A stretch of DNA of 64,000 bases from the human T2T-CHM13v2.0 reference genome, Homo sapiens (GCA_009914755.4 CP068257.2:20032001-20096000); one strand, 5' to 3'; shown: positions 2,965-56,817, numbered from the stretch's first letter. Notes: generated by a model from the letters alone, not told the origin. Translations and numbers: made by a program.

Positions 2965-4195
2965 GTTCCAACCCTCCCCCTCCCAAATCTCATGTCCTCA
3001 AATTTCAAAACTACTCATGCCTTCCCAACAGTCCCCAAAAGTCTTAACTCATTTCAGCATTAACTTAAAAGTCCATAGTCCAAAGTGTCATCTGAGAAAA
3101 GGCAAGTTCTTCTGCCTGTGAGCCTGTAATATCAAAAGCAAGTTAATTACTTCCTAGATACAATGTGGGTACAAGCATTGGGTAAATACACCTGTTCCAA
3201 ATGGGAGACGTTGTCCAAAATGAAGGTGCTTCAGGCCCCATGCAAGTCCAAAATCCAACAGGCCTGTCAAATATTAAAGCTATGAAATCATCTCCTTTCA
3301 CTCCATGTCTCACATACAGGTCACACTGATGCAAGACGTGGGTTCCCATGGTCTTGGGCAGCTCTACCCCTGTGGTTTTTCAGCATACACCCCTCCTTCT
3401 GGATAGTTTCACAAGCTGGCATTGAGTGTCTGCAGCTTTTCTAGGTACGTAGTGCAAGCTGTCGGTGGAGCTATCATTCTGAGGTCTGGCGGATGGTGGC
3501 CCTCTTCTCACAGCTCCATTAGGTAGTGCCCAGTAGGGACTCTGTGGGAGGGCTCCAACCCCACATTTTCCTTTTGCACTGCCTTAGCAGAGGTTCTCAA
3601 TGAAGACCCTGCCTCTGCAGCAGACTTCTGCCTGGACATCCAGACATTTCCATACATCCTCTCAAATCTAGGTGGAGGTTCCCAAACATCAATTCTTGAT
3701 TTCTGTGCACCCACAGACTCAACACTATGTGGAAACTGCCAAGGCTTGGGGCTTCCACCCTTTGAAGCCATGGCCCGAGCTCTACCTTGGCCCTTTTAGC
3801 CATGGCTGGAGCAGCTGGGGCACGGGGCACCAAGTACCTAGGCTGCACGGAACAGTGGGGCCCTGGGCCAGGCCCAGGAAATTATTTTTTCTTCCTAGGC
3901 CTTTGAGCCTGTGATGGGAAGGTCTGCCACGAAAGTCTCTGACCTGCCCTGGAAACAGTTTTCCCACTGCTTTTGAGATTAACGTTTGGCTCCTCATTAC
4001 TTATGCAAAGGTCTGCAGCCACCTTGAATTTCTCCTCAGAAAAAGGGTTTTTCTTTTGTATTGCATCTTCAGGCTGCAAATTTTCTGGACTTTTATGCTC
4101 TGCTTCCCTTTTAAACATAAGTTCCAATTCCACACCAAAGCTTTGTGGATACATAAAACTGAATGATTTTATAGTGAAAAGCAAATAATTTGAGA
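2965..4195 (-). mobile_element. THE1-class internal region, 5' truncated, no 5' LTR present
   Basis: ORFs 3143-3349(-) and 3882-4319(-) translate to THE1-internal-like peptides (e.g. AEHKSPENLQPEDAIQKKNPFSEEKFKVAADLCISNEEPNVN). The DNA is contiguous with the LTR at 2964 and ends abruptly near 4195. Confidence 0.6.
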
Positions 4196-8087: not shown

Positions 8088-8660
8088 TATTAGTTTTCTA
8101 TTGCTGTCATAACAGATTTCCAAAACGTAGTGGTTTAAACACAAATGTATTATCTCATTGTTCTGTAGTTCAGACATCTAGGTGTAATGTGGCTTGGCTG
8201 GTTTCTCTGGTTAGTCTCACAGGACTGAAAGCCAGGTGTCAGCAAGTAGTATCCTAGAGGCTTTGGGGATGAATCCATTTCCTTACTCAGTCAGGTTGCT
8301 GGTGGAATTCAATTGCTTGAAGAGGGTAATAGGAGTGAGATCCTTGTGTCCTTGGCTAGCTGTAAGCTACAGACTGTTCCCAAATCCTAGAGTCCACCCA
8401 CATTCCCTAGGTGGTGACTGCTTATCCCTCTTCAAAGCTCATGATGCCAAGTTGAACCCTTTTCCTGCATCCAATCTCCATGGTCTGCCCTCCCCCGGAC
8501 CCCACTGCTTCATCTCTCCTACTCTTTCATCCACATCACTCTGATTCTTTTCCATCCTCTCCTGCTTGTTTCAGGCCCATGTAATTACCTTGTGCCCACC
8601 TGGATAACCTAAGACCATCACCTTATTTTAAGGTGAGCTGATTGGTAACTTATTTTCACC
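8088..8660 (+). repeat. Ancient MaLR-type (MLT1-like) LTR copy
   Basis: It starts ttagttttctattgctgtcataacagatttccaaaacgtagtggtttaaacac and ends ...gtaattaccttgtgcccacctggataacctaagaccatcaccttattttaaggtgagctgattgg, matching MLT1-type LTR structure. Confidence 0.35.
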
Positions 8661-11700: not shown

Positions 11701-12086
11701 AATTTATGAAATTGATTTTCATAAGTCAAGCATTGACCTAAGTACTTTTATTTTTAATTTTTGTTTTGTGTTTGGGGGTACATGTGCAGGTTTGTTATAT
11801 TGGTAAAATGTGTGTTGCAGGAGCTTGGTGTACGGATTATTTTGTCACCCAGGTAATATGCATAGCACCCGATAGGTAGTTTTTGGATACTCACCCTCCT
11901 CCCAACCTTCACTCTCTAGTAGACCCCAGTGTCTGTTGTTTGCTTCTTTGTGTCCATATGTACTCAATGTTTAGCTCTCACTTACCAGAGAGAACATGCA
12001 GTGTTTGGTTTTCTGTTTCTATGTTAATTCACTTAGGATAATGACCTCCAGCTACATCCTTGTTGCTGTAAAGGACATTATCTTGT

Positions 12087-12127
12087 TTTTTTTTTTTTGT
12101 TTTTTTTTGTTTTTTTTTTTTTTTATG
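12087..12127. repeat. Interrupted poly-T homopolymer (about 40 nt) expanded inside the L1
   Basis: ttttttttttttgtttttttttgtttttttttttttttt sits where the L1 consensus has only a short T run before atggctgcatag. Confidence 0.7.
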
Positions 12128-15100
12128 GCTGCATAGTATTGCATGGTATACATGTACCAAATTTTTAAAATCCAGTCTATTGCTGATGGGTATTTACATT
12201 GATTTCATGTATTTGCTATTGTAAATAGTGCTGCAATGAACATATGTGGTGATTGTAGACATCAATTCAACGCTATTCATATTAAACTACCTTTTGGTTT
12301 TCATCAGGATGAATACCATCTTGATGGTAGAAAATTTATATTCCTTTGGGTATATACCCAATACAGGGATGGCTGAGTCAAATGGTAACTCTGTTTTAAG
12401 TTCTCTGATAAATTTGCCAAACTGCTTTCCACAGTGGCTGAACTAATACTCATTCCAACCAGCCGTGTATAAGCATTCCCTCTTCTCTGTTCCAGCATCT
12501 GTTCTTTTTTTAACTTTATTCAATAACAGCCATTCTTATTGGTGTGAATGGTATCACATTGTGGTTCTGATTTGTATTTCTCTAATGATTAGTGATGTTG
12601 AACGTTTCTTTAGATGTTTTGTGGCCACACACATTTTCTTTTGAAAAGTGTTAGTGTCCTCTGCCCACTTTTTGCTGTGGTGGTTTGGTTTTTGCTTGTA
12701 AATTTGTTCCAGTTCCTTATAGATTCTTGACATTAAACTTTTGTCACATGCATAGTTTGCAAGTATTTTCTCCCATTTGTAGGTTTTCTATTTATTCTAT
12801 TGATTTTTTTTTCTGCTTTGCAGTTCTTTAGCTTAATTAGGTCCCATTTGTCAATTTTTCTTTTTGTTACAGTTACTTTTGGTGTTTTCATTATAAAGTT
12901 TTTGCCAGGGCCTATGTCCAGAATGGTTTTATCTAGTTTATCTTCCAAGGCTTTTATAATTTTAGGTTTTAAACTTAAGTCTTTAATTCATCTTAAGTTT
13001 ACATTTGTATATTGTGTAAGGTAGGAAGGAAGGAAGGAAGGGGTCCAGTTTCCATCTTCTGCATATGGCTAGCCAGTTATCCCAACAACATTTATTAAAT
13101 AGGAAGTCCTTTCCTCATTGCTTACTTTTGCCAACTTTGTGGAAGATCAAATGGTTGTAAGTGTGTGGCCTTATTTCTAAGCTCTCTATTGTGTTCTACT
13201 GGCCTATCTGCCTGTCTTTGTACCAGTACCATGCTGTTTTGGTTATTATAACCTTATAGTATAGTTTGAAGTTGGGTGATGTGATGCCTCCAGCTTTGTT
13301 TTGTTCTTTGTTTTTGTTTTTTGGCTTAGGATTGCTTTGGCTATTTGGGCTCTTTTGTGGACTCATATGAAATTTAGTATAGTTTTTTCGAATTATGTGA
13401 AGAATGTCATTGGTAGTTTGATATGAATAGCATTAAATTGTAAATTGCTTTTGGCAGTATGGCCATTTTAACAATAATGAATCTTCCTATTAACATATAT
13501 GAACTGTTTTTCCCTTTGTTTCAGTCATCTCCAATTTCTTTGCACAGTATTTTGTAATCCTCATTGTAGAGATCTTTCACCTCCTTTGTTAGCTGTATTC
13601 TTAGGTATTTAATTATTTTGTGGCTATTGTGAATGAAATTGTGTCTTGACTTGGCTTTAAGCTTGTACATTGTTTGCTGTTGAAAATGCTACTGATATTT
13701 GTGCATTAATTTTGTATCCTGAAACTTCACTGAAGTTGTTTATGAGATCAAGGATCTTTAGGGCAGAGATTATGGGGTTTTCTCAGTATAGAAACAAATA
13801 ATCAGTGAAAAGAGATAATGTGACTTTCTATCTTCCTATTTGCATGCCTTTTATTTCTTTCCCTTGCCTGATTTCTCTGACTAGTACTTCTAGTACTATG
13901 ATGAATAGAAGTAGTAAGAGTCAGTATCTTTTCTTTTTCCAGTTCTTAAGGAGAATTATTCCAGCTTTTGCCCATATAGTATGATGTTGGCTGTAAGTTT
14001 GTCACAGATGGCTCTTATTATTTTGAGGTGTGTTCCTTCAATACTTAGTCAGTTGACGGTTTTTAACATAAAGGATAAATTTTACTGAAAACCTTTCCTT
14101 AGTCTATTGAGATGATCATGTAGTTTTTGTTTTCACTTTTTTTAATGTGATGAATAATATTTATTGATTTGTGTGTTGAATCAACCTCACATCTTATTAA
14201 TAAAGTCTACTTGATTGTGATGAATTAGCTTTTTCATTTGCTGCTGGATTCAGTTTACTAGAATTCTGTTGAGTATGTTTGTATCTATGTTCTTCAAGGA
14301 TATTGGCCTGAAATTTTCCTTTTTTGTGTGTTTGTCTCTGCTAGGTTTTTGTATAAGAATGATGCTGACCTCACCAAATGACTTCAGGAGGATTCCCCCC
14401 TAGTCAAGTTTTTGGAATACTTTCAATATTAATGGTATCAATTCTTCTTTATACATGTGGTAGAATTTGGCTGTGAATTTATCTGGTCTTGTGCTTTTTC
14501 TGGTTGGTAACTTTTTTTTTTATTATGTATTCCATTTGGGAACTCATTATTGGTTTGTTCAGGAATTCAATTTCTTCCCTTTTCTATCTTGGGGAGTTGT
14601 ATGTTTCATTAAGTTATCATCTATTTCTTTCAGGTTTTCTAGATTGTGTGCATAGAGGTGTTCATAGTAATCAGTAGTCTCTCAGTTTTTGGGGTTTTTT
14701 TGTTTTTTTTTTTTTGTATTTCTGTGGGGTTGGTGGTAATGTCCCCTTTGTCATTTCTGATTGTGTTTATTTGGATCTTTCTATTTTTCATTAGTCTAGG
14801 TAGCAGCCTATCAATCTTATTTATCTTTCAAAAAATAAATTCATAGGTTCATTGATCTTTTCTATAGTTTTTCACATTTTAGTTCAGCTCTAATTTTTTT
14901 TCTCTCCTTCTGATAGCTTTGAGGTTGGTTTGCTCTTGTTTCTCTAGTTCTCCAAGTGTCATATTATGTTGCAAGTTTGTCTTTCTAACTTTTCAATGTG
15001 GCTGTTTAGTGCTATAAACTTCTGTCTTCACATTACTTTAGCTGTGTCCCAGAGGTTGCGATATGTTGTATTTTTGTTCTCATTAGTTCCAAATAATTTA

Positions 15101-15278
15101 TTGATTGCTGTCTTAATTTTTTTGTTGACCCGAAAGTCACTAAGGCAAGGCTGTTTAATTTCCATATAATTGTATTGTTTTGAGTGATGCTTTCATTATT
15201 GATACCCATTATTATTGCACTGTGGTCTGAGAGTGTGGCTGGTATGTTTTTAGTTTTTAAAAGTTTGCTGATAATTGT

Positions 15279-15617
15279 TTAATGACCAATTATGTGGATA
15301 ATTGTATAGTATGTGCCATATACAGATGAGAAGAATCTATATTCTGTTGGTTTTGGGTGGAGAGTTCTGTAGATGTCAGTTAGCTTCATTTGGTCAGGTG
15401 TCAAACTCAGGTCCTGAATATTTTTTTTATCTTTCTGCCTCTCTATCCTGTCTATTACTCTTTGTAAGTTATTGAAGTCTCCCACTATTATTGTGTGGTC
15501 TTCTAAGTCTCTTTGCAGGTCTCTAAGAATTTGTTTTATGAATCTAGGTTCTACAGTGTTGGATGCATGTACATTTAGGATAGCTAGGTCTTCTTGTTGA
15601 ATTGAACCCTTTACCAT
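15279..15617 (-). pseudogene. L1 ORF2 endonuclease-domain remnant (112 aa open segment)
   Basis: The translation MVKGSIQQEDLAILNVHASNTVEPRFIKQILRDLQRDLEDHTIIVGDFNN...IYRTLHPKPTEYRFFS aligns to the L1 ORF2 N-terminal endonuclease region. The surrounding frame is broken. Confidence 0.8.
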
Positions 15618-18600
15618 TATGAAATGTTCTCCTTTGTTCTTTCTGATAATTATTGGTTTAAAGCCTGGTTTGTCTGAAATAAGAATAGCAACTTTTGCTC
15701 TTGATGGTTTTCCATTTGCTTATGAGACCTGTCTCCATCCCTTTACTTTGAACCCATGGGTATCATTGCATGTGAGATGGATCTCTTAAAGACATCACAC
15801 AGTTGGTTCTTGCTTTATCCAACTTTCCACTCTGTGCCTTTTAATTGAGGCATCTATCCCATTTACATTCAAGTTTAATATTGATATTTGTGGATTTGAT
15901 CATGTCTTCATATTGTTAGCTATTTATTATGCAGACTTGATTGTATAGTTGTTTTATAATGCCAATGGTCTATGTACTTAAACTGTATTTTGTGTTGTCC
16001 CGGAACGGTCTTTCCTTTTTATATTTAGTACACCCTTAAGGACCTCCTGTAAGACAGGTCTGGTACTAACAAATTCGCTTAGCATTTGCTTATCTGAAAA
16101 GAATCTCATTTCTCCTTCACTTATGAAACTTAGTTTGACTGGAAATGAAATTCTTGGTTGGAATTTCTTTTCCTTAAGAATGCTAAAAGTAGACCCACAA
16201 ACTCTTCTGGCTTGTAGGGTTTCTGCTGAAAATTCTGCTGTTAGCCTGATGGAGTTCCTTTTGTAGGTGACCTGCCTGTTTCTCTAGCTGCATTTAACAT
16301 TTTTTTCTTACATTTCAATGTTGGAGAACCTGATGACTATGTGTCTTGGGTATGGTCATCTTGTGTAGTATCTCACAGGGGTCCTCTGCATATCCTGAAT
16401 TTGAGTGTTAGTCTTCTAGTGTGGTTGGGGACATTTTTACAAACTTTATCGGCAAATATGTTTTCCAAGTTGCTTGCATTCTCTCCCTCTGCTTCAGGAA
16501 TGCCAATGAGTCATAGATTTTAATCTCTTTATATAGTGTCGTATTTCTCAGAGGTATTCTTCATTTTTCTTTTTTTTCTGTTTTTTTCTGACTGAGTTGT
16601 TTTGGAGAAGTCTTTAATCTCTGATATTCTGTCATCAACTTGGTTAATTCTACTGTTAATTCTTGCAATTGTATTATAAAATTTGAAGTGAGTTTTTCAG
16701 CTCCATCAGATCAGTTTAGTTCCTTCTCAAAATGCCCATTACTTCTTTCAGCTTCTTTATTATTCTGTTGTATTCTTATAGTCCTTGGATTGGATTTTGA
16801 CTGTTTATTAAATCTTGACGATCATCATTCCTATCCAGATTTTGAATTCTCTGTCTGTCATTTCAGCCATTTTAGCCTGGTTAAGAATCATTGCTGGGGA
16901 AATAATGTGGGTATTTGGAGGAAAAAAAGACACTCTGGCTATTTGAGCTGTCGTTGTTCTTGTGCTGGTTCTTTCTCATATCCGTGTGCTGAAGTTTCTT
17001 CAGTCTTTGCAGATGCTATCCTTTGGATAAGTTTTTTGCTTTTATCTTATTTGATGCTGTTGGGGGTTTTATGGTGGTATAAAGTGGGTTACAGTCTTCA
17101 TTTCTGGAAGATTCTAGTGGGTCAAGGCTCGGCTCAGCACTCCTTGGTTGTGTGTTCCAACTATCGGGAGCTGGTACTGAGCTCTGGCTTTGTTTTCTGG
17201 ACCCCCAAGGTTAGAAATCTGCTATGCTATAGGGGCCAAGGTGTTCCTAGTCTACTGGCCCCAACACTCAATCAGTGGTGCGGGTGTTGGCATAACTTAT
17301 GTATTTGGTGCAGAAATGTTTACCTAGGAAAATAAGCCTATAAATTAGTAAACAATTTTACATTTTCCTAAGAAATTTTTTCAAAGCCATATTATTTTTC
17401 CTCAAGTAAAGAGTTAGATAATTTAGGCAAGCAAGTCTCCCCTCAGGCAATAGATTGCTAACCTGTCCAAACAGCTTGCTTATTTTACAACAGTTTACTT
17501 ATCAAGGCCATTATCTAACTGTGTCCACCAATCTTAATTATGTCACCATCTTTGCACGAACCTAATTATCTTCTTTCTTTGAATGAACAGAAATAATCTG
17601 CAGTATCACAGGTGTAGGCATCTTGTAAATACCCTCCTCTGTCCATTCCGTTCTGAAATGCTGCAGACTCAAGACTCTTCTTTTCAGTAAGAATAATTTA
17701 CTTACCTTTCTTTGGTGAACAGTTTTCTTTGTTATTGTTGATCTTTTGATGGTACCAGCGGTCAAAACTTATTTTATAGCAGATATAGAACTAAGTTATA
17801 ATCCATGCTTTGACTCAAAGATCTCAACAGTCTTCAGTCATCTTATTGAATGCATCTTATTAAAATACATCTCCACTGTATATTTTTCTCTATGGAGATG
17901 AGCTTCCTTAAAAACTCACCCACTTCTATGCAACAGAATAATTCATCTTAATCTCTAGTTTTTACCATTCTTCGAACTCTAGTCCTGCATTTTCTACTGC
18001 CTGCAGGACTTTTCCACTTGACTGCATTTCTATCATCTGACACCATTTAACTGACACTATTTAAACTAAACTCATCTATGCCAAAAATGTAATTCTCTGG
18101 ACTTCATTATTATACCAAAATTTGGCAGACGTTTTAAAAATCTTATGCACACATTTCTTGTCACCCTATTAACATTGTAAATGTCCTGAGGAAAAGGATC
18201 TCATAAGATACTTCTCAATATTATCTTTCTCTTCTGCTAAGCACAATGCAGTGCATGAGGTGTTCAGTAAAGAGAGAAAAAGTGAAAAATGAGAGAGCTG
18301 TAAGTCATTTTAATTACTACATAAAATTAGGTTTGGCATGATATTTAAAATTACAATTTAATTTGATTCAATGGTCATGAGCTAGTGTCATCAGGACTGC
18401 TCAAAAAACCCCAGGGGTACTTATAATGAATAATTATCATACCCTGACCCCTAGGCAGGCTGTTCTTAGGTTGTGAGTGTCATGAAATGAACCCTGGAGG
18501 TGATATTAGGGAAAAGAGAAAAAATGAAGACAGCTTTTTTCTTTCTCTCACTAGAATAGTCTGCTGACAACAGGCAATTAAAGTTCAAGGATATTTGAGA

Positions 18601-34735: not shown

Positions 34736-36589
34736 ACATTAGATTTATTTTAAAGACATTCATGGATCATTTATAATGAGATTAATAGAGTTGGACAAGA
34801 GATTAAAAAATACCGATGCAAAATGGGACTGAGGTGCAGATTTTGTTAGTATTAGCTTAAAGGTCAGTGTTAATATTGACAAAGACTCTCTCTTTGACCA
34901 AATTCTAGACAGGTTCCTCTGAGTTTTTCTTTGACTAATTCTCATTCTTGGGCCTTGATCTCAAGAGCCTAGTTGTAGCATGAACCTCGTATAGTCAGTT
35001 TAGCAAGAAGCCTCACCCTCAGTATCTACTCACTCTCAATATCTAATCAAATTCCTCATCTTTCGCCACCCCCCAGGGGTGTCTGATCACCCCGTCCTGT
35101 CCTCAGCAAGAATCTTGTTTATTTAACCAGAATGTACCCTTATCCCTGATGTTTCTTTTTAGTAATTTTTCATCCACTGATCCTCTCTCTGTTCCTTGGA
35201 TATAAATCCCTCTTATTCATGCTGTATTAGGAGTTGAGCTCAATTTTTCTCTTCTGCTGCAAAACCCTATTGCAGAGTCCTTTGTATAAAATCTTCATTA
35301 CCATCTGTGACAAGTGTCAGAATATATTTTTCTTTAACAATATCACTGGAAAATTGCCTGAGGGAATTAATATAAACAAGCATGACAAAAATGACCTAAA
35401 ATTAATACCAAGATGTACAACACTAGGAGGTAAAGAGAGAATGTGAAATTACGTCCATGTATCTTACAAGGCATTTAGGTTCTTTTTTTTTTTCTTTTTT
35501 TTTTTAGCCTAGCCCTCAAGAGCCTGTGGTGAAAAAGTGTATTAGAAGCCAAATAGTTACAGGTTAAAATCCTGTTTTTATCTTACCAGCTGCTGCTTCT
35601 TGAGCAGGATTTAGAGTCAATTCTCAGACTGGAGTTTCCTCATGTAAAGTGGAAATAGTATCGTCCCTTCCTATACTAATACTAATTTAAATGTTAGGTT
35701 TTATTTTATGTAAGCACTTAATTAGGAGCTCACAAATACAGGTTTTATGAAATGCCTTGAAACCACTTTTCCTCTGATCTTACAACTTTTAAAGACAGAA
35801 TAGACGATGTGGGTAGGATCCTAATGGCCCCCATGCATTTCTAAGTTATTTTTGTAGAAAATTTCCAGGCGCTGAAGTGGTAAAGGCAATTGTCATTTCT
35901 TCCCTTGAATGAGGCTTAGTAAAGATTTTATGATTAGGAATTTGGCCACCTACCTCACATCTGGAAACCATGGCTATGAAAATAGTGGGTGACCCATTTG
36001 AAGATGTGGAGTGGAACTTTAGATGGAATAACACACTATTTTCAGTCTTAAAATAGCCCATTGATTCAGACCCTACATTTCCTTATTTAAAAAGTACATG
36101 AACCTTTTTGAAGGCATCTCTAAATATCCTAATTTTGGAAAAAAAAACCTATCATTCTCATTTATATGTAGGGCTGCCATATAATGGAATGTAATACTAT
36201 TAAAAGGAAAATTCAGATTAGAATCTCATCTCTTATGGACTAAATCTTTTATTCCAAAATGAAAGTGTGGCATTTTTCAATGAAATGTGGTTTCTTCAAT
36301 ATTTAGAATTCGATATCTGCAAAAGCCAAATTAAAAGGAGCTTAATTGCCAGAAAGGCAATGTGAAGATGACAATGGAAAGGAATAAGACACTTGGCTTA
36401 TTTATTTTTTCCCCACTTTCAATGGCTTTGTTTTGTAATGATTATCTTTAGGTATCGGCATGTTCATATTTTTCTTCTCAATTATAAAATCTTTAATCAT
36501 TTCCTCGGGTGTATAAAAATGAAATGATTAGATGCAACTTTAAATTATGCAGGGTAATGATCAGGAACTGTTTACTGATTCTGCTATAT

Positions 36590-36850
36590 TATAATATTCA
36601 AATTATATACAATAACATATAACAAAATTATATATAATTATATTATATATAGTTTGATATATTTAGTTTGATACAAAAAACTTGATACATAAATATCAAT
36701 TTTATGTCAAATTAATATATAGATATTATATATAATTACATAATTTGATATAAATATGATATATAAATATATACAAATATATAAGTATCACATTTATATC
36801 AAATTGATATATAAACTATATATATAATTTGAATATCATAATATGGCAGA
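36590..36850. repeat. AT-rich low-complexity block rich in short inverted repeats (ttgatata / tatatcaa)
   Basis: The run is almost entirely A/T and repeats gatata, tatatc and ttgata words. Confidence 0.6.
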
Positions 36851-38969
36851 ATCGGTAAATACTTTTGGCCATAAGACTGGATACAGAGATTCTACCCAAC
36901 ACTCAGTTACCTACCCTATGCACACATATTCAGCTACATTTCTGTTCTTTTGTACTTGCATCCAACTGCCTTAAGCCTCATCCTTTTGATTGAATTCCCA
37001 AAAATCAAGTACTGAAATCAGTTTATAATTTATATTGACCACAGAGGGGCACACCTCAAAACCAATGTAAGCTGATGGACCATTTTCCAAAGCATAATTT
37101 ATCATCATCATCATCAGCGCTACCTTTGGCCCCTGTCTAAATAGGCCAAGGCTGTGTTAAGATGGCTTATTAAATGAAATATGTATCTCTGCAATTGGAT
37201 GGTTTATTACTCTCTTGAGAATGATATTATCTATACTTAAAGGAAAGTTGCATTTTCTTACAATTTCTTTCTTTCAGAACATTTTAGTTACCCATATTTT
37301 AGTGTCTTTTGCTCATGTGTGCTCTTTGTTATAATACATGCATGCTCCACACCAGGTAGTTGGTGAAAGTTTTCTTTCATTCTTTAACTAAGTTCTTTTT
37401 CATATCTGTGAGTACCAAAATATGAAATAAAGGAATATAAAGTTGAGAGAGAATTGATTTCCTAAGTGTCTACATTAAAAAAAGAAATGTAGTCTAGTTG
37501 ACAGGATATTTGATTTCTGTTAGCTCTATATGTTGCATGTAGATCAATTTACTTCTGACCTTCTCATAACAAGTTGTTAAAAAAATTGTCTCTATACATT
37601 GTTTTAAATATCTTTTTTGGTTAAAGCAAACACATTGAAAATCCCTAGATGTGTATTTAAGGCAGTACGACAATTATGATTCCTACTAAGTTTGTTTCTA
37701 GACGTTTTAGGCACGTAAACCTTCACTGGAGAGGGCAAATACAAACACCTGACAAAAACTCTCTGATTGGAGAAAATCACACAGTACCTCAGCCATCAAC
37801 ATCTTTTCTCTTTGCTAAATTTAGGAGAGAAGACAAATGGAAAGGATTTAAAACTTTGGTAATTAGCTATGACTGGAGCAATTCAAAGTCACCACTTTAT
37901 GGTAATTCTGAATTGGTTTACATTACTTAAAGCAAAATCTTCTCATATGAATCTATCATCCAATAAATCAGAGATATTAATAAACACTATTTAAAATACA
38001 AAGCTTAATTGAAAATTAGAGTTATAGAAGATAAGTGCTTCTAGCTGAGGGTAATTTTTACTGCCTACTTGGCAGAATATATTCTCAAATCCAGAGGAAA
38101 TATTTCTAGGAGATATTTCTAGAAGCATATACCAATTTCCAAAATGAAGCAGGCCCAATGGCTACTTTGTTTTCCAACTCTAAGTGACAATTAACTCTAT
38201 CAAACAGAATTTGACAAAGAATCAAACAGATCTATGCCCTCTTCCCTTGCAGGAGCAAACTGAAAGAATACTCTGGTTTCAAATATATATCCTAATAAAA
38301 TGTGTAAATTTTATAAAAGACTATAAAGACTTCCTTTCACATGAAGACCATAAATTCTTTTTTATCTTTTTGAGTAACTGTGAACTTCTTATCCCAGAAA
38401 GTCTATAATAGCAAAGCAAAATATAAGTCTTTCACTCCTTCCATTAAAAAAGTTAAATATTTTTAATAAGTGACTTATTTTTTAAAATGTTAAGGTTTTA
38501 TGTCTATATAGTATTATAATGCCTTCTATAGTATGGTGCAGTTAATCTAAGAAGGATATAGAACATAAAAATATTTGCTTAAAATAAACAAAACATGAAG
38601 GAATAAACAATTGAAAGAGAAGCCTATCTATAATGGTAGAAATAAGATAGAGAGGACTTTGATTAAAAAAAAAACTATGCTTTTTAAAATAGTATTTGTT
38701 TTGTAAGTTTTATTTGTTTTATTTGAATTCATGCTAATATTGCATATAATTATTACACAAAATTAAATTAAAAATCTCAAATAACACAATCAAAATAAAA
38801 TGCAATAAACATAAATTTGCACCCAGTTGGGCATATCCACAAGTGAAAATTATGCCAAATGGATTTAAAACACAGTAATTTGACTATAAATTTATAGTGG
38901 AACAAAAATAGGTATAAAAAATTTTAAACAATCATATTACTTATGGTAGTATTGGTATTTTTATTTTGA

Positions 38970-40368: not shown

Positions 40369-43800
<3,432 letters not shown>

Positions 43801-46800: not shown

Positions 46801-49800
46801 AGAGCTTTGTAAAAGAAAAAAGAATGTAAATGTGAACTTATCTAATTCTCATGTAAATAATAGTAAACTTGAATATCTATAGGGACTGTGTTATAAAACA
46901 GAGGGGGATAAACTCTACTGGCTAAGCTACCTCAGAAAATAAATTGCCTTCCTTCTATTTCATTCTTTCTTGGACATGACTGCCCTACTACACAGAATGA
47001 TTGAACTAGATAATCGTGTGTAGGCTGCATGACCAAATAGAGAAGGTGGGGTTGCATTTTCATTGTCCAAGGAGTAGCCTATTGTTCTGCATACTTCTTT
47101 GCATGGCTATGTTAAAAATTTTCCATCAAGTAATTATTTCTACGCATTACTGAAGAACACAGGGAATATATTTGAAGCCAATTCAATTTTTAATTCATTT
47201 ACAAAGGAATTCAAAATAAATTACTCTTCCGAGATTCTTGCATTTTCTTAGGAAAATCTCTTTTCAAAGAAGAAATAAAACTAGAAAGAACATTTCAAGT
47301 TCATTTATATCAGCTTCTCACATCCTTCCCCTTTGGCACCATCAGTGTAAATGCATCTCATTCTATTTCAGTTTTCATTGGCATGGAAAAGGACTAGCAG
47401 TTCTTTTCTGGCAGCCAGCAAAACAGAAAACACAGCAAATCAGTTATTAAAATTTAAAGCACTCTTTTTTTTCTTGGCAATTGTAACTGTGACTCACAGT
47501 TCAGGAGAGTGGTGAAAATGTAAGTGTGATTTAACATCATAAAGTTTCTCGCTTAAGACCAACAATTTCACAAACTCAAGATGCCTTTAAAAAAATAAAT
47601 CTAGAGGAAGTTCATTTCCTGTTCTAAATAATTTTTCTAATCTCTGATAAAACCTTCAAGTGTAATCCTAAAAAACAAAATACAGCTCTCGTTTCTTATT
47701 TAAAAAAAGAAGAGAGAAAAGAAACAACATCACAGAAATAACTTTACTTAGAGGGAAACTGTTGTAAAGTACAGCCTGCCTGCTATTTCAAGATCCAATA
47801 CAATTTCCCAGGTTTTATATTATAAGCATCCACTTGAAGAGGAACAAAGAGAAACTTCAGTGCCAAATCAGCCCGTTGAAAAACACATATCCTCTCAAGA
47901 ATGATGATCTATAATTAATGCCAATCATTTGAGAAAGATTAAAAATGACATACAGCAACCCAAAGGAACAGTGTAGTGATTTCCACCCACTATTTTGATG
48001 GAGAGAAACTGTGATTACATTCAATGCAAGAGCAAGTTTGGGGGTAATGAGGATGATGAGGATGGTGACTCAGAGCACTCCAGAACACAGTTTGAGTAAA
48101 GATGATATAAAATAATAAAAGCCAATGAGATACTCAATTTAGGTTAAAATAACAACTGAAATAATTATTTGTTATAATCTTCTGCTCTCTCGACTGATTT
48201 TCATTTTATTGTACTTGCCTTGGCTAAACCTTAACGTTAGATTAAACCCAACTAATTTTCTTCGTGCTCAGGGCCCATACTTAGCTAATGACTATAGCTG
48301 GATGGCTTTATAAATGGAGAGTTTACCAAAATAAACACCTTTTTAGACATTCAACGTGTTTTATTTATCTTACGGTATTCCTCTTGTTAACCTGCTCTAG
48401 CACCCTGCAAAATAACATATTCGATGTTATTCTAATTATTTATAGTTGCATAGCAAACTATTCACAAAACTTAGTGGTTTAATCAATAATTTATCATATA
48501 TATGTCTCATAGTTCTATGGATTGCCTTTGTTCAGCTGAGTAGTTATATCTTTTCCTTGCATATGGATAGTGTCTGGGGATAGAGTCATCTGAATTCTTA
48601 ATTGAATTGCTTAATTGCAGCCACATGAGTTGGCTCCAATGTGGCTTTCTTACTCACACATTCGGTATTTTGTTGCTCCTTTCTTTAGCTCTCTATGTAT
48701 GGCATCTGATCTCTGGGATCACTTGTCATAGCTTTGGCTTCTCATAACATGATGGACTCAGGACAACCACACTTCTAATATGGTCCTGTCTTCCAAGAAG
48801 GAGAATCAAAGCTGAATTTCCCATTATAGGATATATGTGGGATTGGCAGCGTCAATTTGCCTGTGTTTTATTGGCAAAAGCAGTCACTGTAACTAGTGAG
48901 ATTCAGGAAGGCTGAAAAATCGACTTCAGTTCTTAATTGGAAAGTGGTAAAGCCACAGTGCTGAAGAGCATGTGAGATGGGAAATACTGTCTCATCTCTC
49001 TTTGAAAAATTCACCTACTATCCATTCTCTAGTATTTCAAATTTCTCAATGTCATCCCTACTTTCCTCCTCACCTATACACCATTACCCTTATAAATGCT
49101 GTCACTTCTTACTTTACAGTGAATATTGAAGTCATCAGGCGGATGCCAACTCAAATTTCCACTGCCAATTCTATAAGGCTTTCGGCATCTGTACTCACCT
49201 CTTTCTTTTTCTCTCCCATCATTAATGGAGGAAGATCTGCTTCTAGTAAAGACTCACCTCTCCGTATCTTCTATAAAGGTCATCCCTATATTCCTTTCTG
49301 CACCTTATCATGTTGCTTAACTGTTTTTCTCCAAGATCCTTGACTTCCAAATTTCTACTATTTAATTATATGTTCACAAAACATGGCTCAATTTTCTCCC
49401 ATCATTAAAACAAACAGGCTGACATGCACCAAAATACAGCGGAAGCTTCTTGGTCTTCAATGTACGCATTCAATATCCATGAGGACATAATCTTACTTGT
49501 TTCCTGTGTTTTACCACAGAAATTTTTGAAAGAGTTGTCACCATTCACTTTCTCCATATATTCTAAAGGAGCTTGTGTCAGGGTCAAAAATAAAGTATCC
49601 GGTTTCTAAATCTAAAGCCTACTCTTTAGTCTTTATCATATTAGATATCACAAGCTGCCTTTGACAGAATAGACCGTTTATTGTGGCTTAAAATACACTG
49701 AAGTATTGCTGTTTCTGACTCAATATCTTACAATGGTTTTTAGAAAGATATCTCTTTCTGAATTTAGTTGAATTTTCCCCAAGGCCTAGAGAAGACTCAG

Positions 49801-51288
49801 CAGGCAGAATTGATGACCTTTTCGTCCAATGTAAAGGGCTCAGTTAGGTCAGGTTCATTGTGTCTGGTTTCCTTATCCTTTAAGATGATTTCGCTCCCAG
49901 GAATTTCCTCAGTCTCTTAGCAGAATTTTTGTGGTTCATCCCACCTAGTGCATTGGAGAGCTCCGCATCATAGTTTAGGCTAAGCTTGTACTAGGAATGT
50001 ACTGGGTGAATTAAAATATATATATATTTCATTCATGAAAACATTGGACAGTGGACTCAACATAGTCAAGTTAATAAATACTAATAAAATTTCATTTCCT
50101 TAAAAATGTAAAATGGTCACTTTTTAACAAAAATATTTGGCCAAATAAAGGACGAGAAAAGATAAAATTAAGTGTCTTAAGGCTTTAATTGGAAATAAAA
50201 ATTAAAAATGCATCAATAACCTGATCATTTTTTCATGAATTGTTTAAAATTTAGCTATGGAAATAAATTCATGAGTCTTTAAAAAATTCTATAATTATGT
50301 TTATAATGGGGAAAAACCTCAAAAGTGTATTAAATTATCTTTTTCTTGTATAATTAAACAACTGTGGCATGCTAAATTGCTCAGACCTCAATCAACTCTT
50401 TGATTTAATGCTTCACTGCAATTCTAGCAGGTGGAAATAGAAATCAAAAATAAAATTTGGTACATTTTGTGCTCTGAAATAAACTGTAATTATATGTTCT
50501 TTTATAAAATTTAGTAAATAAGAAGGAAAAAACCAGAAGCTCCGTTGGCCAGCTATTCAGAAATATCAGAAAAAGCAAAAATCTAGAATCCTGATTAGGA
50601 TTCAGAATTCTCAATAAATTAAGCTCTTTGTTCAATGATGTTAGAAGTATAAGAAGGTTTATGGGACCCCAGTTGGCAGAAGATGCTAACATTTGGCTCA
50701 TTATTACTTATATTCAAGAAGCAGTGGTGATATATAAACACTCTAAAATATTTGCTTTTTTTGTAACACCATATCTCTAAGGTACTGCACATGTAAATCA
50801 TTAACATGTAAAGAATAAAAAAAGATAACGTTTAATTCTGTATTTGCATTATCATTAATTAGTAAATTTAGATCAATATTGTGTGAACCATACATTTTCT
50901 ATTCTCTATTATGGGATATTCATGTAATTATGTGTGAATGAATATAGACACAGGACCTGTAGAAAATCAATAACTAGGATAAAAATCACATTAAGAACTA
51001 GAATATTGAGAATTTTGAGAAACTGAGAAAATTGAGAAGTTATGTGAAATGGAAATTTAGAAAATGAAGCAGACAATGTTGCAAAATATTACTTTATGTA
51101 CCTGTTTTTCTGTTTTACATAACTTACAGCTACTTTCTTTGGGAATATAATCATAATAAATGTCTATAAAATTTAAGGCATATATCAGATTATACCGCAA
51201 GTACTATGAGTTTCTATATGGTTTTGAAAATCCTAAAGGTTTTCAAACAGTGTAAAGACATTAAAGACTTTTTACTAATATTATTTTA

Positions 51289-52645
51289 ACTATACGTGTA
51301 TATATAGTATAGTATACTTATATAGTATATTACGCTATACTTTATATACACACATACACTATAGAGTATAGTATATAGTATATACTATACTTTATTATAT
51401 GTAAAGTATATATACTGTATACTCATAGTATATACTATATACTCTATATACATAGTGCATATACTATACTCTCTATGCTATGCATAGTATACAGTATATA
51501 CTATATTCTATGTACTCTATATATAGTGTATATACTAGACTATGCTATGCATAGTATATAATATAGTTGATATAATCTATATACATAATATATATACTAA
51601 ATTCTGTATACTGTATATACATAATATATATACTATACTATATACTCATAGTATATGAGAATATATACTATATACTCATAGTATATATTATACTCTACAT
51701 AGTATATATTATTCTATAAAGTATATGCTATCTAATCACACAGAACTGCACCGTTTCCAAACAGGAAACTTTAACATTTTTGTGTCTTTTTATTCTATCT
51801 CATCCTACCCCTTTATCATACTCTGTATAGTACATACTCTGTATTGTATATACTATCTATATATGGTATATACTTTACAGTATATACTGTAGACTATATA
51901 TGATTCATTATATTATATACTATATACTATACTCTATACTCCTACTATATACTATACTCTGTATTCATACTATATACTATATTATATATACTATACTCTA
52001 TATAGATATTATATGCTATACATCATAATAGTGTATATTTCATCAATTATTTAGTTGCAGTTGTATAAAAATGTTACAACAAATGCTAGAGTCCTTCCCT
52101 TTCTTTCTCAGTTTACAGAGGCATTGGTTACCTAGTATTCACCAAATGAGTATAAGGAGTTTTTATCAAGTTAAAAAAAATTATCATTTTTCATCAGTAA
52201 TTAATTTCCACCAACTTTTCAGTAACGTGAAGTGATGAAGTATACACTACTATGGTATACTATAGTGTACAGTATACTATATACCATTTACTCCCATCAT
52301 TAATGGGGTTATATACTATATACTATAATATATAGTATAGTACATTATACTATATGTATACTACACTATAATACGTATACACACATACTATACAAATTAT
52401 ACTATATACTATATAGTATCATATACTATACTGTATATACACACATATAGTATATAGTATAGTATGCTATAATATACAGTACAGTATTATATATACATAA
52501 ATAGTTATAGTGTACAGTGTAGTATAGTATACCATAGTATGTATCACACATAGTTAAAATATTAGAAAAAATTTTTAATATACACATATATGTATACACA
52601 CACATATATACACACATATTTATATATATAGGTACACATATAATG
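51289..52645. repeat. Complex degenerate (TATAC / TATAG / GTATAC)n low-complexity block, about 1.35 kb, with two non-repeat interruptions (51733-51822 and 52020-52240)
   Basis: The sequence is dominated by the words tatactatatac, agtatatactat and gtatacagtatatac. It is highly self-complementary because GTATAC and TATA are palindromic. (CA/TA) runs lie at the 3' edge. Confidence 0.8.
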
Positions 52646-53509
52646 TTATTTAGTTTTTATTTATATCTAAATTTGTGCTATGGCTAGCCCTCATGTCACA
52701 TTTTTGTGAGAAAAGACTTTAAGAATCAGTTCTATGGTGAACTGTTTGAACTCTCTGTTAACTTTTCTAATAATACAGAACAAAAAATATAGAGATCATA
52801 AAAATCAGCTGGGAAAGAACTGACTTGGAAAGAGAATAAAGACATAGGCAACATAAAACATAACCAACCTAATCCATATTTAAGCTTTTTTTCAGCTAGT
52901 TATGCATCAGATAGAAAAGCATAGGCTGTAATGTGTTTGTTACAAATGATTTTTTAAAGAGTATTAGTCAGACATATTATTCAAATTCAAATAGCTTGTA
53001 AAATCCATAATATTAAGTCTTTAAGTGAAGAAAGACAAACTTGATAAGTTAATATAGTTTTTGTGTCTGATAGTTAAGTCTAAAAGTAAAGGCTCTACAA
53101 TTGAAACATTCTGGGTCTAAATCTCAGTTTGTATTACTTTGTGATGGTGGACAATTTGCTGAGCCTTTTTTTCTGAGTCTTAGATATTTTTATCTGTACA
53201 AGAGGCTTAGCAATAGCACCAACTTCATGAAATTGTTAGGAATATGACATGGTAAATGGAAATAAAGCAGTTATTCTAATGTCTGACAGAAGAAAGAGCC
53301 CAAATAAATTGTTAACATAGCTTTAATCAATTAGCTACCTCATGTATTCCAAAATTATATGATTCAAATTTACATTCACAGAGTAATTACTTCGCTTGCC
53401 TCTCTTCACCTTTGGTTAGTTACTATCTTTATGTTTATTTCTTCCATTTTCTTGATCCTTTTTCTCTCTATTGTCCTTCTTACACCCACAGGCAAGGCTA
53501 CGACACGAT

Positions 53510-53900
53510 TACTATTGACTAAATTATGCCCGTGCCCAAATTCAGACGTTGAAGTCCTAACCCCTAGCCCCCCTCAGAAGGTGACTGTAATTGGAGATAG
53601 GACCTTAATGAGGTATGTAATGTTAGAAGAGGTAATCTGAGTGAGCCCTAATCCAATATGACCTGTGATTTTTTTAAGAAGAGGCAGAACCACTACAGAT
53701 GCTTGTTCACAGAGAGGTCATGTGAGAACACAGCGAGAAGGCAGGACAAGGAGAGAGGCTTCAGGAAAAAATAACCCTGATGACACCTTGATCTCGGACT
53801 TCCACTCTTAATGACACAGAACGGCATCACTTGCAAACTGAAAACTTAAACGTTTTTGTGTCTATTTATTCTATCTCATCCTTCCCCTTTATCATCTGAT
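53510..53900 (+). repeat. MaLR-type LTR fragment (tentative)
   Basis: tgcccgtgcccaaattcagacgttgaagtcctaacccctagccc...ctgtaattggagataggaccttaatgaggt...gagccctaatccaatatgacctgtg...caccttgatctcggacttccac is the standard MaLR-LTR motif series (tgcccaaattcatatgttgaagccctaaccccc...ccctaatccaatatgactggtgtcct...caccttgatcttggacttc). Confidence 0.4.
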
Positions 53901-54303
53901 CATGTTTAGTGCATCTGATATTTTCCTTCATCTGATCATGTATTCTTCAGAAATTTTCCATGTATTAGTTTTTCATTCTACTTTTAGTCTTAATTTTTTT
54001 TTTTGTTATCCTGTCTACATTGAACCATGTCAGTTGTCCTATCCAGAGCACTCTTGATTTTCCTCTGACCTTTAATGAGATCAAACATAAAACTTGCTAT
54101 GTTTGGATGAGCCTTTCTTCACTTACCACCGCATCACTGCTAACGTTGCAAAGGAAAATTGTAAATATAGATGATTGTCTACTTAAAATTCCTGTCACTC
54201 AGAATTAGGTAATTTCTCATTGTTAACTTTTACTCATTTAAATTATTTTACTTAATACATAATCTAATATGTCCTTTTCCACTTTTATTAAGCTCCCAAA
54301 TAA

Positions 54304-54682
<379 letters not shown>

Positions 54683-56478: not shown

Positions 56479-56530
56479 GTTTTTTTGTTTTGTTTTGTTT
56501 TGTTTTGTTTTGTTTTGTTTTGTTTTGTTT
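56479..56530. repeat. (GTTTT)n microsatellite, 10 units, derived from the poly-A tail of the adjacent reverse AluY
   Basis: gttttgttttgttttg... runs directly into gagatggagtctccctctgtcgcccagg. Confidence 0.85.
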
Positions 56531-56817
56531 GAGATGGAGTCTCCCTCTGTCGCCCAGGCTGGAGTGCAGTGGCGCGATCTCGGCTCACTGCAAGCTCCGC
56601 CTCCCGGATTCACGCCATTCTCCTGACTCAGCCTCCTAAATAACTGGGACTACAGGTGGCCGTCACCTTGCCCCGGTTAATTTTGTTTTTATATTTTTAG
56701 TAGAGACGGGGTTTCACCGTGTTAGCCAGGATGGTCCCGATCTCCTGACCTCGTGATCTGCCCGCCTCGGTCTCCCAAGGGGCTGGGATTACAGGCGTGA
56801 GCCACCGCGCCCGGCCC
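56531..56817 (-). mobile_element. AluY-like element, reverse orientation, with TSD ctctaagtc
   Basis: It carries the AluY-diagnostic region gcaagctccgcctcccggattcacgccattctcctg. It ends ...ggctgggattacaggcgtgagccaccgcgcccggcccc. The flanks are ttctctaagtcgtttt (56465-56480) and cctctaagtcattttt (56817-56832). Confidence 0.9.

What the first reader, a model, noticed from the sequence alone, without database searches (positions are those of the whole stretch)
51289..52645. About 1.35 kb palindrome-rich (TATAC/GTATAC/TATAG)n block, a candidate cruciform-forming and unstable AT-rich repeat
The block consists of hundreds of degenerate copies of words built on GTATAC, TATA and CTATAG. Each is its own reverse complement, so the region is densely self-complementary at many scales. 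Palindromic AT-rich repeats of this kind are known substrates for hairpin or cruciform extrusion, replication stalling, length polymorphism and assembly collapse. The block is split into three sub-arrays by two non-repeat inserts, which suggests repeated expansion and interruption.
Basis: partly seen in the sequence, partly recalled or inferred. Interest (0 to 1): 0.55.

Follow-up and report, generated by a model that had tools for sequence, protein, structure and literature searches.

The report
Degenerate AT-rich TATAC simple-repeat cluster
This is an ordinary, heavily mutated AT-rich simple-repeat cluster in primate non-coding DNA; it can make many tiny hairpins and melts easily, but it has no long palindrome, so a cruciform is unlikely, and its low repeat purity points to modest instability, which could not be checked here.

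Summary
The block is real. In 51289-52645, TATA-based words are 14-50 times denser than in the rest of the window, and weak periodicities of 2, 5 and 7 bp are present. The window is catarrhine primate DNA (dimeric Alus, human-like L1).

The description is overstated. GTATAC occurs 11 times and CTATAG twice, which is chance level. There are at least three interruptions, not two. The repeat is very impure: TRF matches are 62-83%, and the longest perfect tracts are (TA)5 and 2.6-2.8 units.

No extended inverted repeat exists. The longest perfect hairpin stem is 13 bp. The longest arms are 57 nt at 77% match with a 300-nt spacer. Hairpin counts, best inverted alignments and folding energies all match random sequences built from the same short words. 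A real 300-bp AT-rich quasi-palindrome at 36566-36864 passes the same test. The middle sub-array is one-directional and folds no better than shuffles.

Best reading: a neutral, old, "cryptically simple" AT-rich micro/minisatellite cluster. It amounts to three 284-492-bp "flexibility peaks" with the weakest duplex in the window. It is prone to strand opening and short hairpins, not cruciforms. Length polymorphism could not be tested.

Side finding: insert 1 is a 103-bp paralogue of sequence 2 kb downstream.

The parts
51289..51731 (.). Sub-array A1. Degenerate (TATAC/TATATAC/TA)n with frequent orientation flips (TATAC 26 : GTATA 20).
   Evidence: TRF period 7 x51 copies at 63% matches, period 27 x12 at 66%, period 67 x2.6 at 70%. 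ssDNA fold z = -3.8 vs dinucleotide shuffles but z = -0.2 vs the Markov-4 null.
51365..51391 (.). Longest perfect palindrome in the block: 13-bp stem with a 1-nt loop (AGTATAGTATATA G TATATACTATACT).
   Evidence: The size is not above dinucleotide or Markov nulls (P = 0.33-0.54).
51732..51816 (+). Interruption 1, non-repeat. The homologous segment 51733-51835 is a paralogue of 53809-53914.
   Evidence: 86% identity over 87 nt, E = 2.5e-25. Under lenient scoring it extends to 106 columns at 81%. Alignment.
51817..52033 (+). Sub-array A2. One-directional (TATAC 13 : GTATA 4). It starts with the 16-mer CATACTCTGTATAGTA x2.4 and then runs into variable 9-30-nt TATAC...GTA units.
   Evidence: Lag-7 autocorrelation is 0.56 vs 0.33 expected. 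ssDNA fold z = +0.15.
52034..52237 (.). Interruption 2. Non-repeat sequence of about 204 bp with no paralogue in the window.
   Evidence: AT+TA fraction 0.20.
52238..52545 (.). Sub-array A3 (TATAC 18 : GTATA 11). It contains a third short interruption at 52286-52309 (TTTACTCCCATCATTAATGGGGT).
   Evidence: Fold z = -3.8 vs dinucleotide shuffles for 52238-52645, i.e. A3 plus spacer and tail; z = -1.2 vs Markov-4 for 52238-52545. The 16-mer CTCCCATCATTAATGG is identical to 49213-49228.
52546..52645 (.). A 32-bp non-repeat spacer followed by a tail of (TATACACACA)-like compound TA/CA repeat (52578-52645).
   Evidence: TRF period 14 x3.4 at 81% matches. Sequence.
53809..53914 (+). Paralogue of interruption 1, just after a truncated old interspersed repeat (53536-53804). 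It is followed by a related 19-mer x3.2 tandem repeat (53892-53949).
   Evidence: Unit similarity is 12/16, P about 0.006.

Best explanation
The block is a neutral, old, heavily degenerated compound micro/minisatellite ('cryptically simple' AT-rich sequence) in non-coding primate DNA.

How it arose (inferred):
- Short AT-rich units (TATAC, TATATAC, TA) were amplified locally by replication slippage and small tandem duplications with periods of 16-67 bp.
- Frequent short strand-switch events at the palindromic cores (GTATAC/TATATA) flipped unit orientation.
- Point mutation then eroded the arrays.
- Sub-array A2 at least seems to have grown out of a short 16-19-nt tandem repeat that is still visible in a paralogous segment 2 kb downstream.

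Physical behaviour:
- It is a cluster of three AT-dinucleotide-rich 'flexibility peaks' and the weakest duplex in the window.
- Under negative supercoiling it should open by strand separation.
- When single-stranded it can form many short hairpins (13 bp or less) in sub-arrays A1 and A3.
- It is not a cruciform-extruding palindrome.
- Because of its low purity, its length instability is expected to be modest.

Shown: composition, periodicity, impurity, absence of an extended inverted repeat, low duplex stability.
Inferred: the slippage/template-switch origin, neutrality, modest mutability.
For: - Word enrichment and weak periodicities at lags 2, 5 and 7 (match 0.45-0.56 vs 0.33 expected).
- TRF arrays show only 62-83% matches and many competing periods.
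- The longest perfect tracts are (TA)5, 2.8 x 5-mer and 2.6 x 7-mer.
- Local exact duplications of 19-23 nt lie at spacings of 30, 36 and 67 bp.
- There are 54 orientation switches among 99 TATAC/GTATA words.
- Hairpin number and size, inverted alignment scores and MFE are all reproduced by Markov-3 to Markov-6 random sequences built from the same words. A genuine quasi-palindrome at 36566-36864 is not reproduced this way (z = -5.0 to -9.3).
- The sub-arrays are not colinear copies of one another beyond word content.
- Three of the window's four flexibility peaks and its least stable duplex windows fall here.
- The context is an AT-rich, Alu/L1-bearing primate region with no Rfam hit.
- Literature: imperfect AT-rich inverted repeats melt rather than extrude (PMC3834812). 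AT-rich interrupted TA runs longer than 200 bp define flexibility peaks (PMC10754330; PMC6765107).
Against: - No orthologous or population sequence could be retrieved, so age, neutrality and length stability are inferred, not shown.
- Two of the three sub-arrays do fold better than dinucleotide shuffles (z = -3.8) and rank in the top 1-4% of the window for ssDNA MFE. Some replication-impeding hairpin potential is therefore real.
- The dinucleotide twist table used for the flexibility calculation was recalled from memory.
- Interruptions 1 and 3 have nearby paralogues. This hints at past rearrangement rather than pure slippage.
Confidence: 0.8

Rival explanations
1. The block is a palindromic AT-rich repeat that extrudes cruciforms or large hairpins and is therefore a hotspot of breakage, length polymorphism and assembly collapse (PATRR-like).
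For: - High density of short self-complementary words and 27 perfect hairpins with stem >=8 (20/kb vs 1/kb elsewhere).
- Sub-arrays A1 and A3 fold at z = -3.8 vs dinucleotide shuffles.
- 124 imperfect inverted pairs were reported.
- A perfect 13+1+13 palindrome at 51365-51391 is just above the 10-bp minimum that can extrude in isolation at sigma = -0.06 (PMC3834812).
Against: - There is no extended inverted repeat. The longest arms are 57 nt at 77% with a 300-nt spacer, and the best alignments are at or below Markov nulls.
- MFE is explained by word content.
- Sub-array A2 shows no excess folding.
- PATRRs are 190-600 bp with 96-99% matched arms. A 9-bp spacer plus 4 central mismatches is enough to abolish extrusion (PMC1851657).
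- In competition, AT-rich imperfect inverted repeats denature instead of extruding.
- Internal exact repeats are 25 nt or shorter, so assembly collapse is unlikely.
Confidence: 0.06
2. The block is a moderately active AT-dinucleotide-rich replication impediment (AT-DRS). It stalls forks through clusters of short hairpins, is measurably length-polymorphic, and has undergone break-and-repair events. Interruptions 1 and 3 would then be templated repair patches copied from 2-3 kb away.
For: - Three flexibility peaks of 284-492 bp. Peaks longer than 200 bp are predicted to form stable structures, and AT-DRSs longer than 400 bp perturb replication at FRA16C.
- The A1 MFE of -45.3 kcal/mol per 300 nt ranks 5th of about 425 windows.
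- Insert 1 is a 103-bp copy of 53809-53914 and appears to span a transposon/flank junction.
- Insert 3 shares an exact 16-mer with 49213-49228.
Against: - The total length of 1.36 kb is interrupted, well below the >=3 kb class linked to fragility.
- AT+TA is 50-55% against 66% in the FRA16C element.
- The longest pure TA run is (TA)5, whereas the polymorphic perfect AT repeat in Flex1 ranges from 11 to 88 copies.
- The insert 1 paralogues are 14-19% diverged, so any such event is tens of millions of years old.
- The transposon-end match that argues for a local copy is weak (P = 0.04) and rests on a consensus recalled from memory.
Confidence: 0.1
3. The block is a functional base-unpairing region: a scaffold/matrix attachment site or another element that exploits easy strand opening.
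For: - The least stable duplex in the window, about -0.94 to -1.0 kcal/mol per bp vs a window mean of -1.23.
- A strand-asymmetric A/T/C-rich composition in sub-array A2 (G 15 of 217), which resembles the 'ATC sequence' context of SATB1-type BURs (my own knowledge, not tested).
Against: - No functional or conservation data are available.
- Such composition is the default for decayed AT-rich simple repeats.
- A similar low-stability element lies at 36.6 kb, so the property is not unique.
- Nothing in the sequence requires selection.
Confidence: 0.03
4. The block is part of a defined satellite or a transposon-internal tandem region, that is, a member of a named repeat family rather than a locally grown array.
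For: - Insert 1 and its paralogue abut an old interspersed repeat.
- Both copies are followed by a related short tandem unit.
- The 2076-bp spacing is in the size range of a small LTR element (inference).
Against: - There is no colinear homology other than the 103-bp patch.
- No dominant unit length exists.
- The FRA16B 33-mer is absent.
- The canonical tail of the recalled repeat (seen at 8088-8168) does not match insert 1.
- No repeat library was available to test the idea properly.
Confidence: 0.04

Closest known systems
AT-dinucleotide-rich sequences / DNA flexibility peaks of common fragile sites (TwistFlex definition; FRA16C AT-DRS, FRA16D Flex regions)
   Same: - Interrupted runs of AT/TA steps.
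- Mean twist fluctuation above 13.7 degrees in 100-bp windows over 284-492 bp.
- Low duplex stability.
- Above-average ssDNA folding in two sub-arrays (PMC6765107, PMC10754330).
   Different: - Shorter and interrupted (1.36 kb in total vs the >=3 kb class tied to fragility).
- Lower AT/TA fraction (0.50-0.55 vs 0.66).
- No perfect (AT)n core: (TA)5 at most, against the polymorphic perfect AT repeat of Flex1, 11-88 copies.
- Chromosomal position unknown, so no link to any fragile site has been shown.
Palindromic AT-rich repeats (PATRR11, PATRR17, PATRR22, PATRR8)
   Same: AT-rich, with many self-complementary words.
   Different: - PATRRs are single near-perfect palindromes of about 190-600 bp, with 96-99% arm match, a 4-41-bp loop and central symmetry.
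- Here the longest perfect stem is 13 bp and the longest arms are 57 nt at 77% with a 300-nt spacer.
Expanded AT-rich minisatellites of rare fragile sites FRA16B (33 bp) and FRA10B (about 42 bp)
   Same: AT-rich tandem repetition with hairpin-forming potential. Various AT-rich motifs are known at those sites.
   Different: - Those have a defined unit in many near-perfect copies (7-12 normally, up to 2000 when fragile).
- Here there is no dominant unit and TRF matches are 62-83%.
- The FRA16B motif is absent.
Cryptically simple sequence / decayed compound microsatellite (RepeatMasker Simple_repeat or Low_complexity classes such as (TATAC)n, (TATATAC)n, AT_rich; my own knowledge of the annotation classes)
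   Same: Strong over-representation of a few short words, weak short-period autocorrelation, low purity, a non-coding AT-rich context, and local small tandem duplications.
   Different: Nothing substantive. It is somewhat longer than a typical instance, and orientation flips are finely interleaved.

Membership tests
PATRR (palindromic AT-rich repeat) | A single near-perfect palindrome of about 190-600 bp with arm match of about 96-99%. | tested here: not met
   Best arms are 57 nt at 77%, 46 nt at 80% and 44 nt at 86%. The best gapped inverted alignments are 28-35 nt and are not above Markov nulls. Criteria come from PMC1851657 and PMC3834812.
PATRR (palindromic AT-rich repeat) | Central symmetry with a short loop (a few bp to about 40 bp) around an AT-rich centre, and relatively GC-rich ends. 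| tested here: not met
   The long arms are separated by 55-1262 nt. Only stems of 13 bp or less have loops of 20 nt or less. There is no single centre of symmetry.
PATRR (palindromic AT-rich repeat) | Location at recurrent translocation breakpoints, with size and symmetry polymorphism among alleles. | not testable with these tools
   No human reference or population data were available. Four scans for independent copies found nothing.
AT-DRS / flexibility peak | Mean twist-angle fluctuation above 13.7 degrees in 100-bp windows. | tested here: met
   Peaks at 51264-51755, 51802-52085 and 52232-52689 (maxima 14.9-15.4 degrees). Only one other peak occurs in the 64 kb. The threshold and window size come from PMC6765107. 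The dinucleotide table was recalled from memory (Sarai et al. 1989).
AT-DRS / flexibility peak | Very high AT/TA dinucleotide content in interrupted TA runs, with length above 200 bp. | tested here: met
   AT+TA is 0.50-0.55 in the sub-arrays vs 0.19 for the window. The published element has 0.66 and controls 0.11-0.16. Peak lengths are 284-492 bp.
AT-DRS / flexibility peak | Long class (>=3 kb) and residence in a common fragile site band. | tested here: not met
   The total is 1.36 kb and is interrupted. The chromosomal band is not determinable here.
AT-rich minisatellite of rare fragile sites (FRA16B/FRA10B) | A defined 33-bp or roughly 42-bp unit in many near-identical tandem copies. | tested here: not met
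   TRF finds competing periods (5, 7, 16, 25, 27, 34, 38, 67) at 62-90% matches and at most 3.6 copies for any unit of 25 nt or longer above 80%. The FRA16B unit is absent even with 3 mismatches allowed.
Simple repeat / cryptically simple sequence | Significant over-representation of a few short words with short-period autocorrelation. | tested here: met
   TATAC 60 vs 27+/-5, TATATAC 30 vs 9+/-3 and TATACTATA 20 vs 3+/-1.6. Matches at lags 2, 5 and 7 are 0.45-0.56 vs 0.32-0.34 expected.
Simple repeat / cryptically simple sequence | Annotation as Simple_repeat or Low_complexity by RepeatMasker/TRF, with no match to a transposon or satellite consensus. | not testable with these tools
   No Dfam/Repbase library was available. 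TRF itself reports the arrays. There are no Rfam families in the window.

The most novel reading that the evidence does not exclude
The AT-rich cluster is, or was, a real replication-stalling and break-prone site. Interruptions 1 (103 bp, copied from 2076 bp downstream across a transposon/flank junction) and 3 (an exact 16-mer shared with a site 3 kb upstream) would then be fossil templated-insertion scars of break repair (MMBIR or polymerase-theta-type). The interval would still be structurally polymorphic in human populations.
Probability: 0.08. Interest if true: 0.35.

Novelty: already known. Interest (0 to 1): 0.1.

Why it matters
It matters little in itself. Thousands of such degenerate AT-rich simple-repeat clusters exist in primate genomes, and standard repeat tracks mask them.

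The useful result is negative and methodological:
- A high density of palindromic words (TATA, GTATAC) does not imply a cruciform-forming palindrome.
- Word-preserving (Markov) nulls separate this block from a true AT-rich quasi-palindrome in the same window (36566-36864).

If the minority reading were true, with polymorphic fork stalling and templated repair scars, the locus would be one more example of AT-rich repeat-driven structural variation. It would not be a new principle.

Tried and rejected
1. Independent copies of the locus. I searched for human contaminant contigs with two unique anchors (27 and 30 nt) in genome contigs and metagenome contigs. All four scans returned 0 hits, so no length comparison was possible.
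2. Rfam scan of the window: no family.
3. PATRR-like long palindrome: rejected.
4. Higher-order duplication between sub-arrays. It was suggested by direct-repeat families spaced about 1030 bp apart. I rejected it because gapped alignments between sub-arrays are not above Markov nulls (P = 0.14-0.39).
5. The inverted pair flanking A3 (52248-52281 / 52506-52539; 34 nt, 85%). It is not significant against word-preserving nulls, and its 224-nt spacer makes it irrelevant for a cruciform.
6. FRA16B identity: the motif is absent.
7. Sequence of the FRA16C AT-DRS for direct comparison: the supplement is not held.
8. Literature search for a (TATAC)n pentanucleotide family: nothing relevant.
9. Insert 1 as the canonical 3' tail of the neighbouring old interspersed repeat, which would make it two independent transposon copies or two LTRs of one provirus. 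The recalled consensus tail does not align convincingly with insert 1 (P = 0.17). A bona fide tail elsewhere in the window aligns strongly. No other colinear homology exists at the 2076-bp offset. The idea is not fully excluded.
10. Pfam on L1-like ORFs: no hits. A PDB sequence search then confirmed L1 ORF2p.

Full report
**Context.** The window is catarrhine-primate genomic DNA, most plausibly human.
- At least twelve dimeric Alu copies match a recalled AluY consensus at 80-94% identity.
- An ORF at 41388-42248 matches residues 990-1275 of human LINE-1 ORF2p at E = 1.5e-180.
- The window is AT-rich (about 66% A+T) and holds no Rfam family at gathering threshold.
- The tools available are built for prokaryotic and viral data. 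No human reference, repeat library or population resource could be queried.

- The interval 51289-52645 (1357 bp) is 76% A+T with only 9% G.
- TATA occurs at 116/kb against 8.3/kb elsewhere. TATAC occurs at 44/kb against 0.96/kb, and GTATA at 29/kb against 1.0/kb.
- The enrichment is more than compositional. Against a first-order Markov model of the block itself, TATAC (60 vs 27+/-5), TATATAC (30 vs 9+/-3) and TATACTATA (20 vs 3+/-1.6) are all in excess.
- Autocorrelation shows weak periodicity at lags 2, 5 and 7 (0.45-0.56 identity vs 0.32-0.34 expected).
- TRF reports arrays of period 5, 7, 16, 25, 27, 34, 38 and 67, but at only 62-90% matches.

**Where the description is overstated.**
- The truly palindromic hexamers are rare. 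GTATAC occurs 11 times. CTATAG occurs 2 times, which is chance level (2.5+/-1.5).
- Word coverage defines sub-arrays A1 (51289-51731), A2 (51817-52033) and A3 (52238-52545).
- The interruptions are 51732-51816, 52034-52237 and a third short one at 52286-52309.
- A 32-bp spacer follows, then a tail with a different TATACACACA-like motif (52578-52645).

**Purity.** The repeat is very degenerate.
- The longest perfect tandem tracts are (TA)5, 2.8 copies of a 5-mer and 2.6 copies of a 7-mer.
- The longest exact internal repeats are 23 nt (direct, 30 bp apart) and 25 nt (inverted, 554 bp apart).
- Sequence this degenerate assembles uniquely and lacks the long pure tracts that drive high slippage rates.
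- In contrast, the same window holds a 96%-pure (TTCC)20 and a perfect (TTTTG)9.6.

**Is there extended inverted-repeat structure?** No.
- TATAC and GTATA words are finely interleaved, with 54 orientation switches among 99 words. Short hairpins are therefore dense: 27 perfect hairpins with stem >=8 and loop <=20, or 20/kb against 1.0/kb in the rest of the window.
- The longest perfect stem is only 13 bp (51365-51391).
- Within each sub-array, neither the number nor the maximum size of hairpins exceeds dinucleotide shuffles or Markov-3/4 sequences (P = 0.32-0.79).
- The longest imperfect arms are 57 nt at 77% with a 300-nt spacer, 44 nt at 86% with 491 nt, and 46 nt at 80% with 55 nt.
- The best gapped inverted local alignments span 28-35 nt and are not above Markov nulls.
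- Folded as ssDNA, A1 and the A3 region (52238-52645) beat dinucleotide shuffles (z = -3.8 each). A2, which is one-directional (TATAC 13: GTATA 4), does not (z = +0.15).
- The excess in A1 and A3 disappears against word-preserving nulls (Markov-4 z = -0.2 and -1.2). It reflects the co-occurrence of both orientations of the same 5-7-mers, not any larger symmetry.
- The test has power. A roughly 300-bp AT-rich quasi-palindrome elsewhere in the window (36566-36864) gives z = -9.3 against dinucleotide shuffles and z = -5.0 against Markov-4. Its outer arms are 44 nt at 89% match.

**What the physics implies.**
- Kogo et al. (PMC1851657) show that cruciform extrusion and in vivo instability of PATRRs depend on length (190-600 bp) and central symmetry. 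A 9-bp spacer plus four central mismatches abolishes both.
- Zhabinskaya and Benham (PMC3834812) calculate that short inverted repeats do not extrude. A perfect 10-bp arm is the bare minimum even in isolation at sigma = -0.06.
- In the same study only 0.38% of sequence-detected inverted repeats extrude once competition is included. Imperfect, highly AT-rich inverted repeats denature instead.
- The present block holds the least stable duplex windows of the 64 kb, together with the 36.6-kb element: -0.94 to -1.0 kcal/mol per bp against a mean of -1.23.
- The expected superhelical transition is therefore diffuse strand opening, not a cruciform.
- By the TwistFlex criterion (100-bp windows, above 13.7 degrees; PMC6765107), the block forms three of the window's four flexibility peaks, of 284-492 bp. 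The dinucleotide table was recalled from memory.
- A table-free measure agrees. AT+TA steps are 50-55% in the sub-arrays against 19% in the window. The FRA16C AT-DRS has 66% and controls 11-16%.
- In absolute terms the 300-nt ssDNA MFE of A1 (-45.3 kcal/mol) ranks 5th of about 425 windows. Some hairpin-mediated polymerase pausing in A1 and A3 is therefore plausible.
- The block is still shorter, less AT/TA-rich and far less pure than elements shown to cause fragility. Those include AT-DRSs of 3 kb or more, 14 or more perfect FRA16B units and Flex1, whose perfect AT repeat ranges from 11 to 88 copies.

**Origin.**
- The three sub-arrays share words but are not colinear duplicates.
- Local exact duplications at 30-, 36- and 67-bp spacings, and short arrays of 16- and 25-nt units at 83-90% matches, indicate small-scale tandem duplication on top of slippage.
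- Interruption 1 is not anonymous. The segment 51733-51835 is 81-86% identical to 53809-53914, which lies 2076 bp downstream on the same strand (E = 2.5e-25).
- That downstream copy lies directly after a truncated old interspersed repeat at 53536-53804. It matches a consensus I recalled at 73% identity, E = 9e-45. The name I attach to it, MaLR/MLT1-like, is unverified.
- Both copies are followed by tandem repeats of a related unit: CATACTCTGTATAGTA x2.4 and CATCTGATCATGTTTAGTG x3.2 (12/16 identical, P about 0.006).
- I infer that A2 grew from this proto-minisatellite after a local duplication tens of millions of years ago, given the 14-19% divergence.
- Interruption 3 shares an exact 16-mer with 49213-49228.
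- These paralogies could be remnants of older duplications or templated repair patches. They cannot be resolved without orthologues.

**Comparison with known classes.**
- The block works like, and meets the operational definition of, an AT-dinucleotide-rich flexibility peak cluster.
- It fails the defining features of PATRRs (near-perfect long arms, central symmetry).
- It fails those of FRA16B/FRA10B-type minisatellites (a defined unit in many near-identical copies; the FRA16B motif is absent).
- It fits the generic category of cryptically simple or decayed compound microsatellite sequence. Standard repeat annotation labels these Simple_repeat or Low_complexity (my own knowledge; not testable here).

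**Verdict.**
- It is right that this is an AT-rich, easily opened, short-hairpin-prone repeat. It is wrong that it is a cruciform-forming palindrome at many scales.
- 'Unstable' remains untested and is disfavoured by the impurity.
- The feature is ordinary and of a known kind, so interest is low.
- The one residual lead is the pair of nearby paralogues of the interruptions. These might record ancient rearrangement at the array (probability about 0.08).

Noticed in passing
window 36566-36864: A roughly 300-bp AT-rich quasi-palindrome. The outer arms are 44 nt at 89% complementarity with 211 nt between them, and there is an inner 29-nt/86% hairpin with a 6-nt spacer. ssDNA MFE is -54.4 kcal/mol, z = -9.3 vs dinucleotide shuffles and z = -5.0 vs Markov-4. 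It is also a flexibility peak and among the least stable duplex regions. It is far more palindromic than the target block. It could be a MITE-like element with terminal inverted repeats or a genuine AT-rich palindrome.
   Followed up: partly
window 51733-51835 and 53809-53914: A 103-bp same-strand paralogous pair 2076 bp apart (81-86% identity). One copy forms 'insert 1' of the AT-rich block. The other abuts a truncated old interspersed repeat. Both are followed by a related 16-19-nt tandem repeat.
   Followed up: partly
window 52291-52306, 49213-49228 and 49391-49408: The third short interruption of the block (CTCCCATCATTAATGG) is identical to a 16-mer 3 kb upstream and is 17/18 identical to a second site 178 bp further on. 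Either it is a dispersed repeat motif or a short templated patch.
   Followed up: no
window 53536-53804 (+) and 8088-8168 (-): Fragments of an old mammalian interspersed repeat. They match a consensus recalled from memory (positions 1-292 at 73%, E = 9e-45; positions 295-379 at 74%). The family name (MaLR/MLT1-like) is unverified.
   Followed up: partly
window 54320-54400 and 56483-56530: Pure microsatellites: (TTCC)20 at 96% matches next to an Alu (54435-54662, minus strand), and a perfect (TTTTG)9.6 at the tail of an Alu (56524-56816, minus strand). These are much better candidates for length polymorphism than the target block.
   Followed up: no
window 40848-42979 and about 12000-17000: L1 fragments. 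The ORF2p C-terminus at 41388-42248 (+) is close to human L1 (E = 1.5e-180). It overlaps an opposite-strand ORF at 42113-42979 that I recognise from memory as ORF2-like (no tool confirmed this), which suggests a 5'-inverted or nested L1. A strong T excess over 12-17 kb, with an endonuclease-like ORF at 15279-15617 (-), again recognised from memory, suggests another L1 on the minus strand. Pfam gave no hits for these ORFs.
   Followed up: partly
window 3001-4000: A local GC peak (0.49) with the most stable 300-nt ssDNA folds in the window (-46 to -55 kcal/mol at 3451-3751). It is not covered by an Alu hit and was not examined.
   Followed up: no
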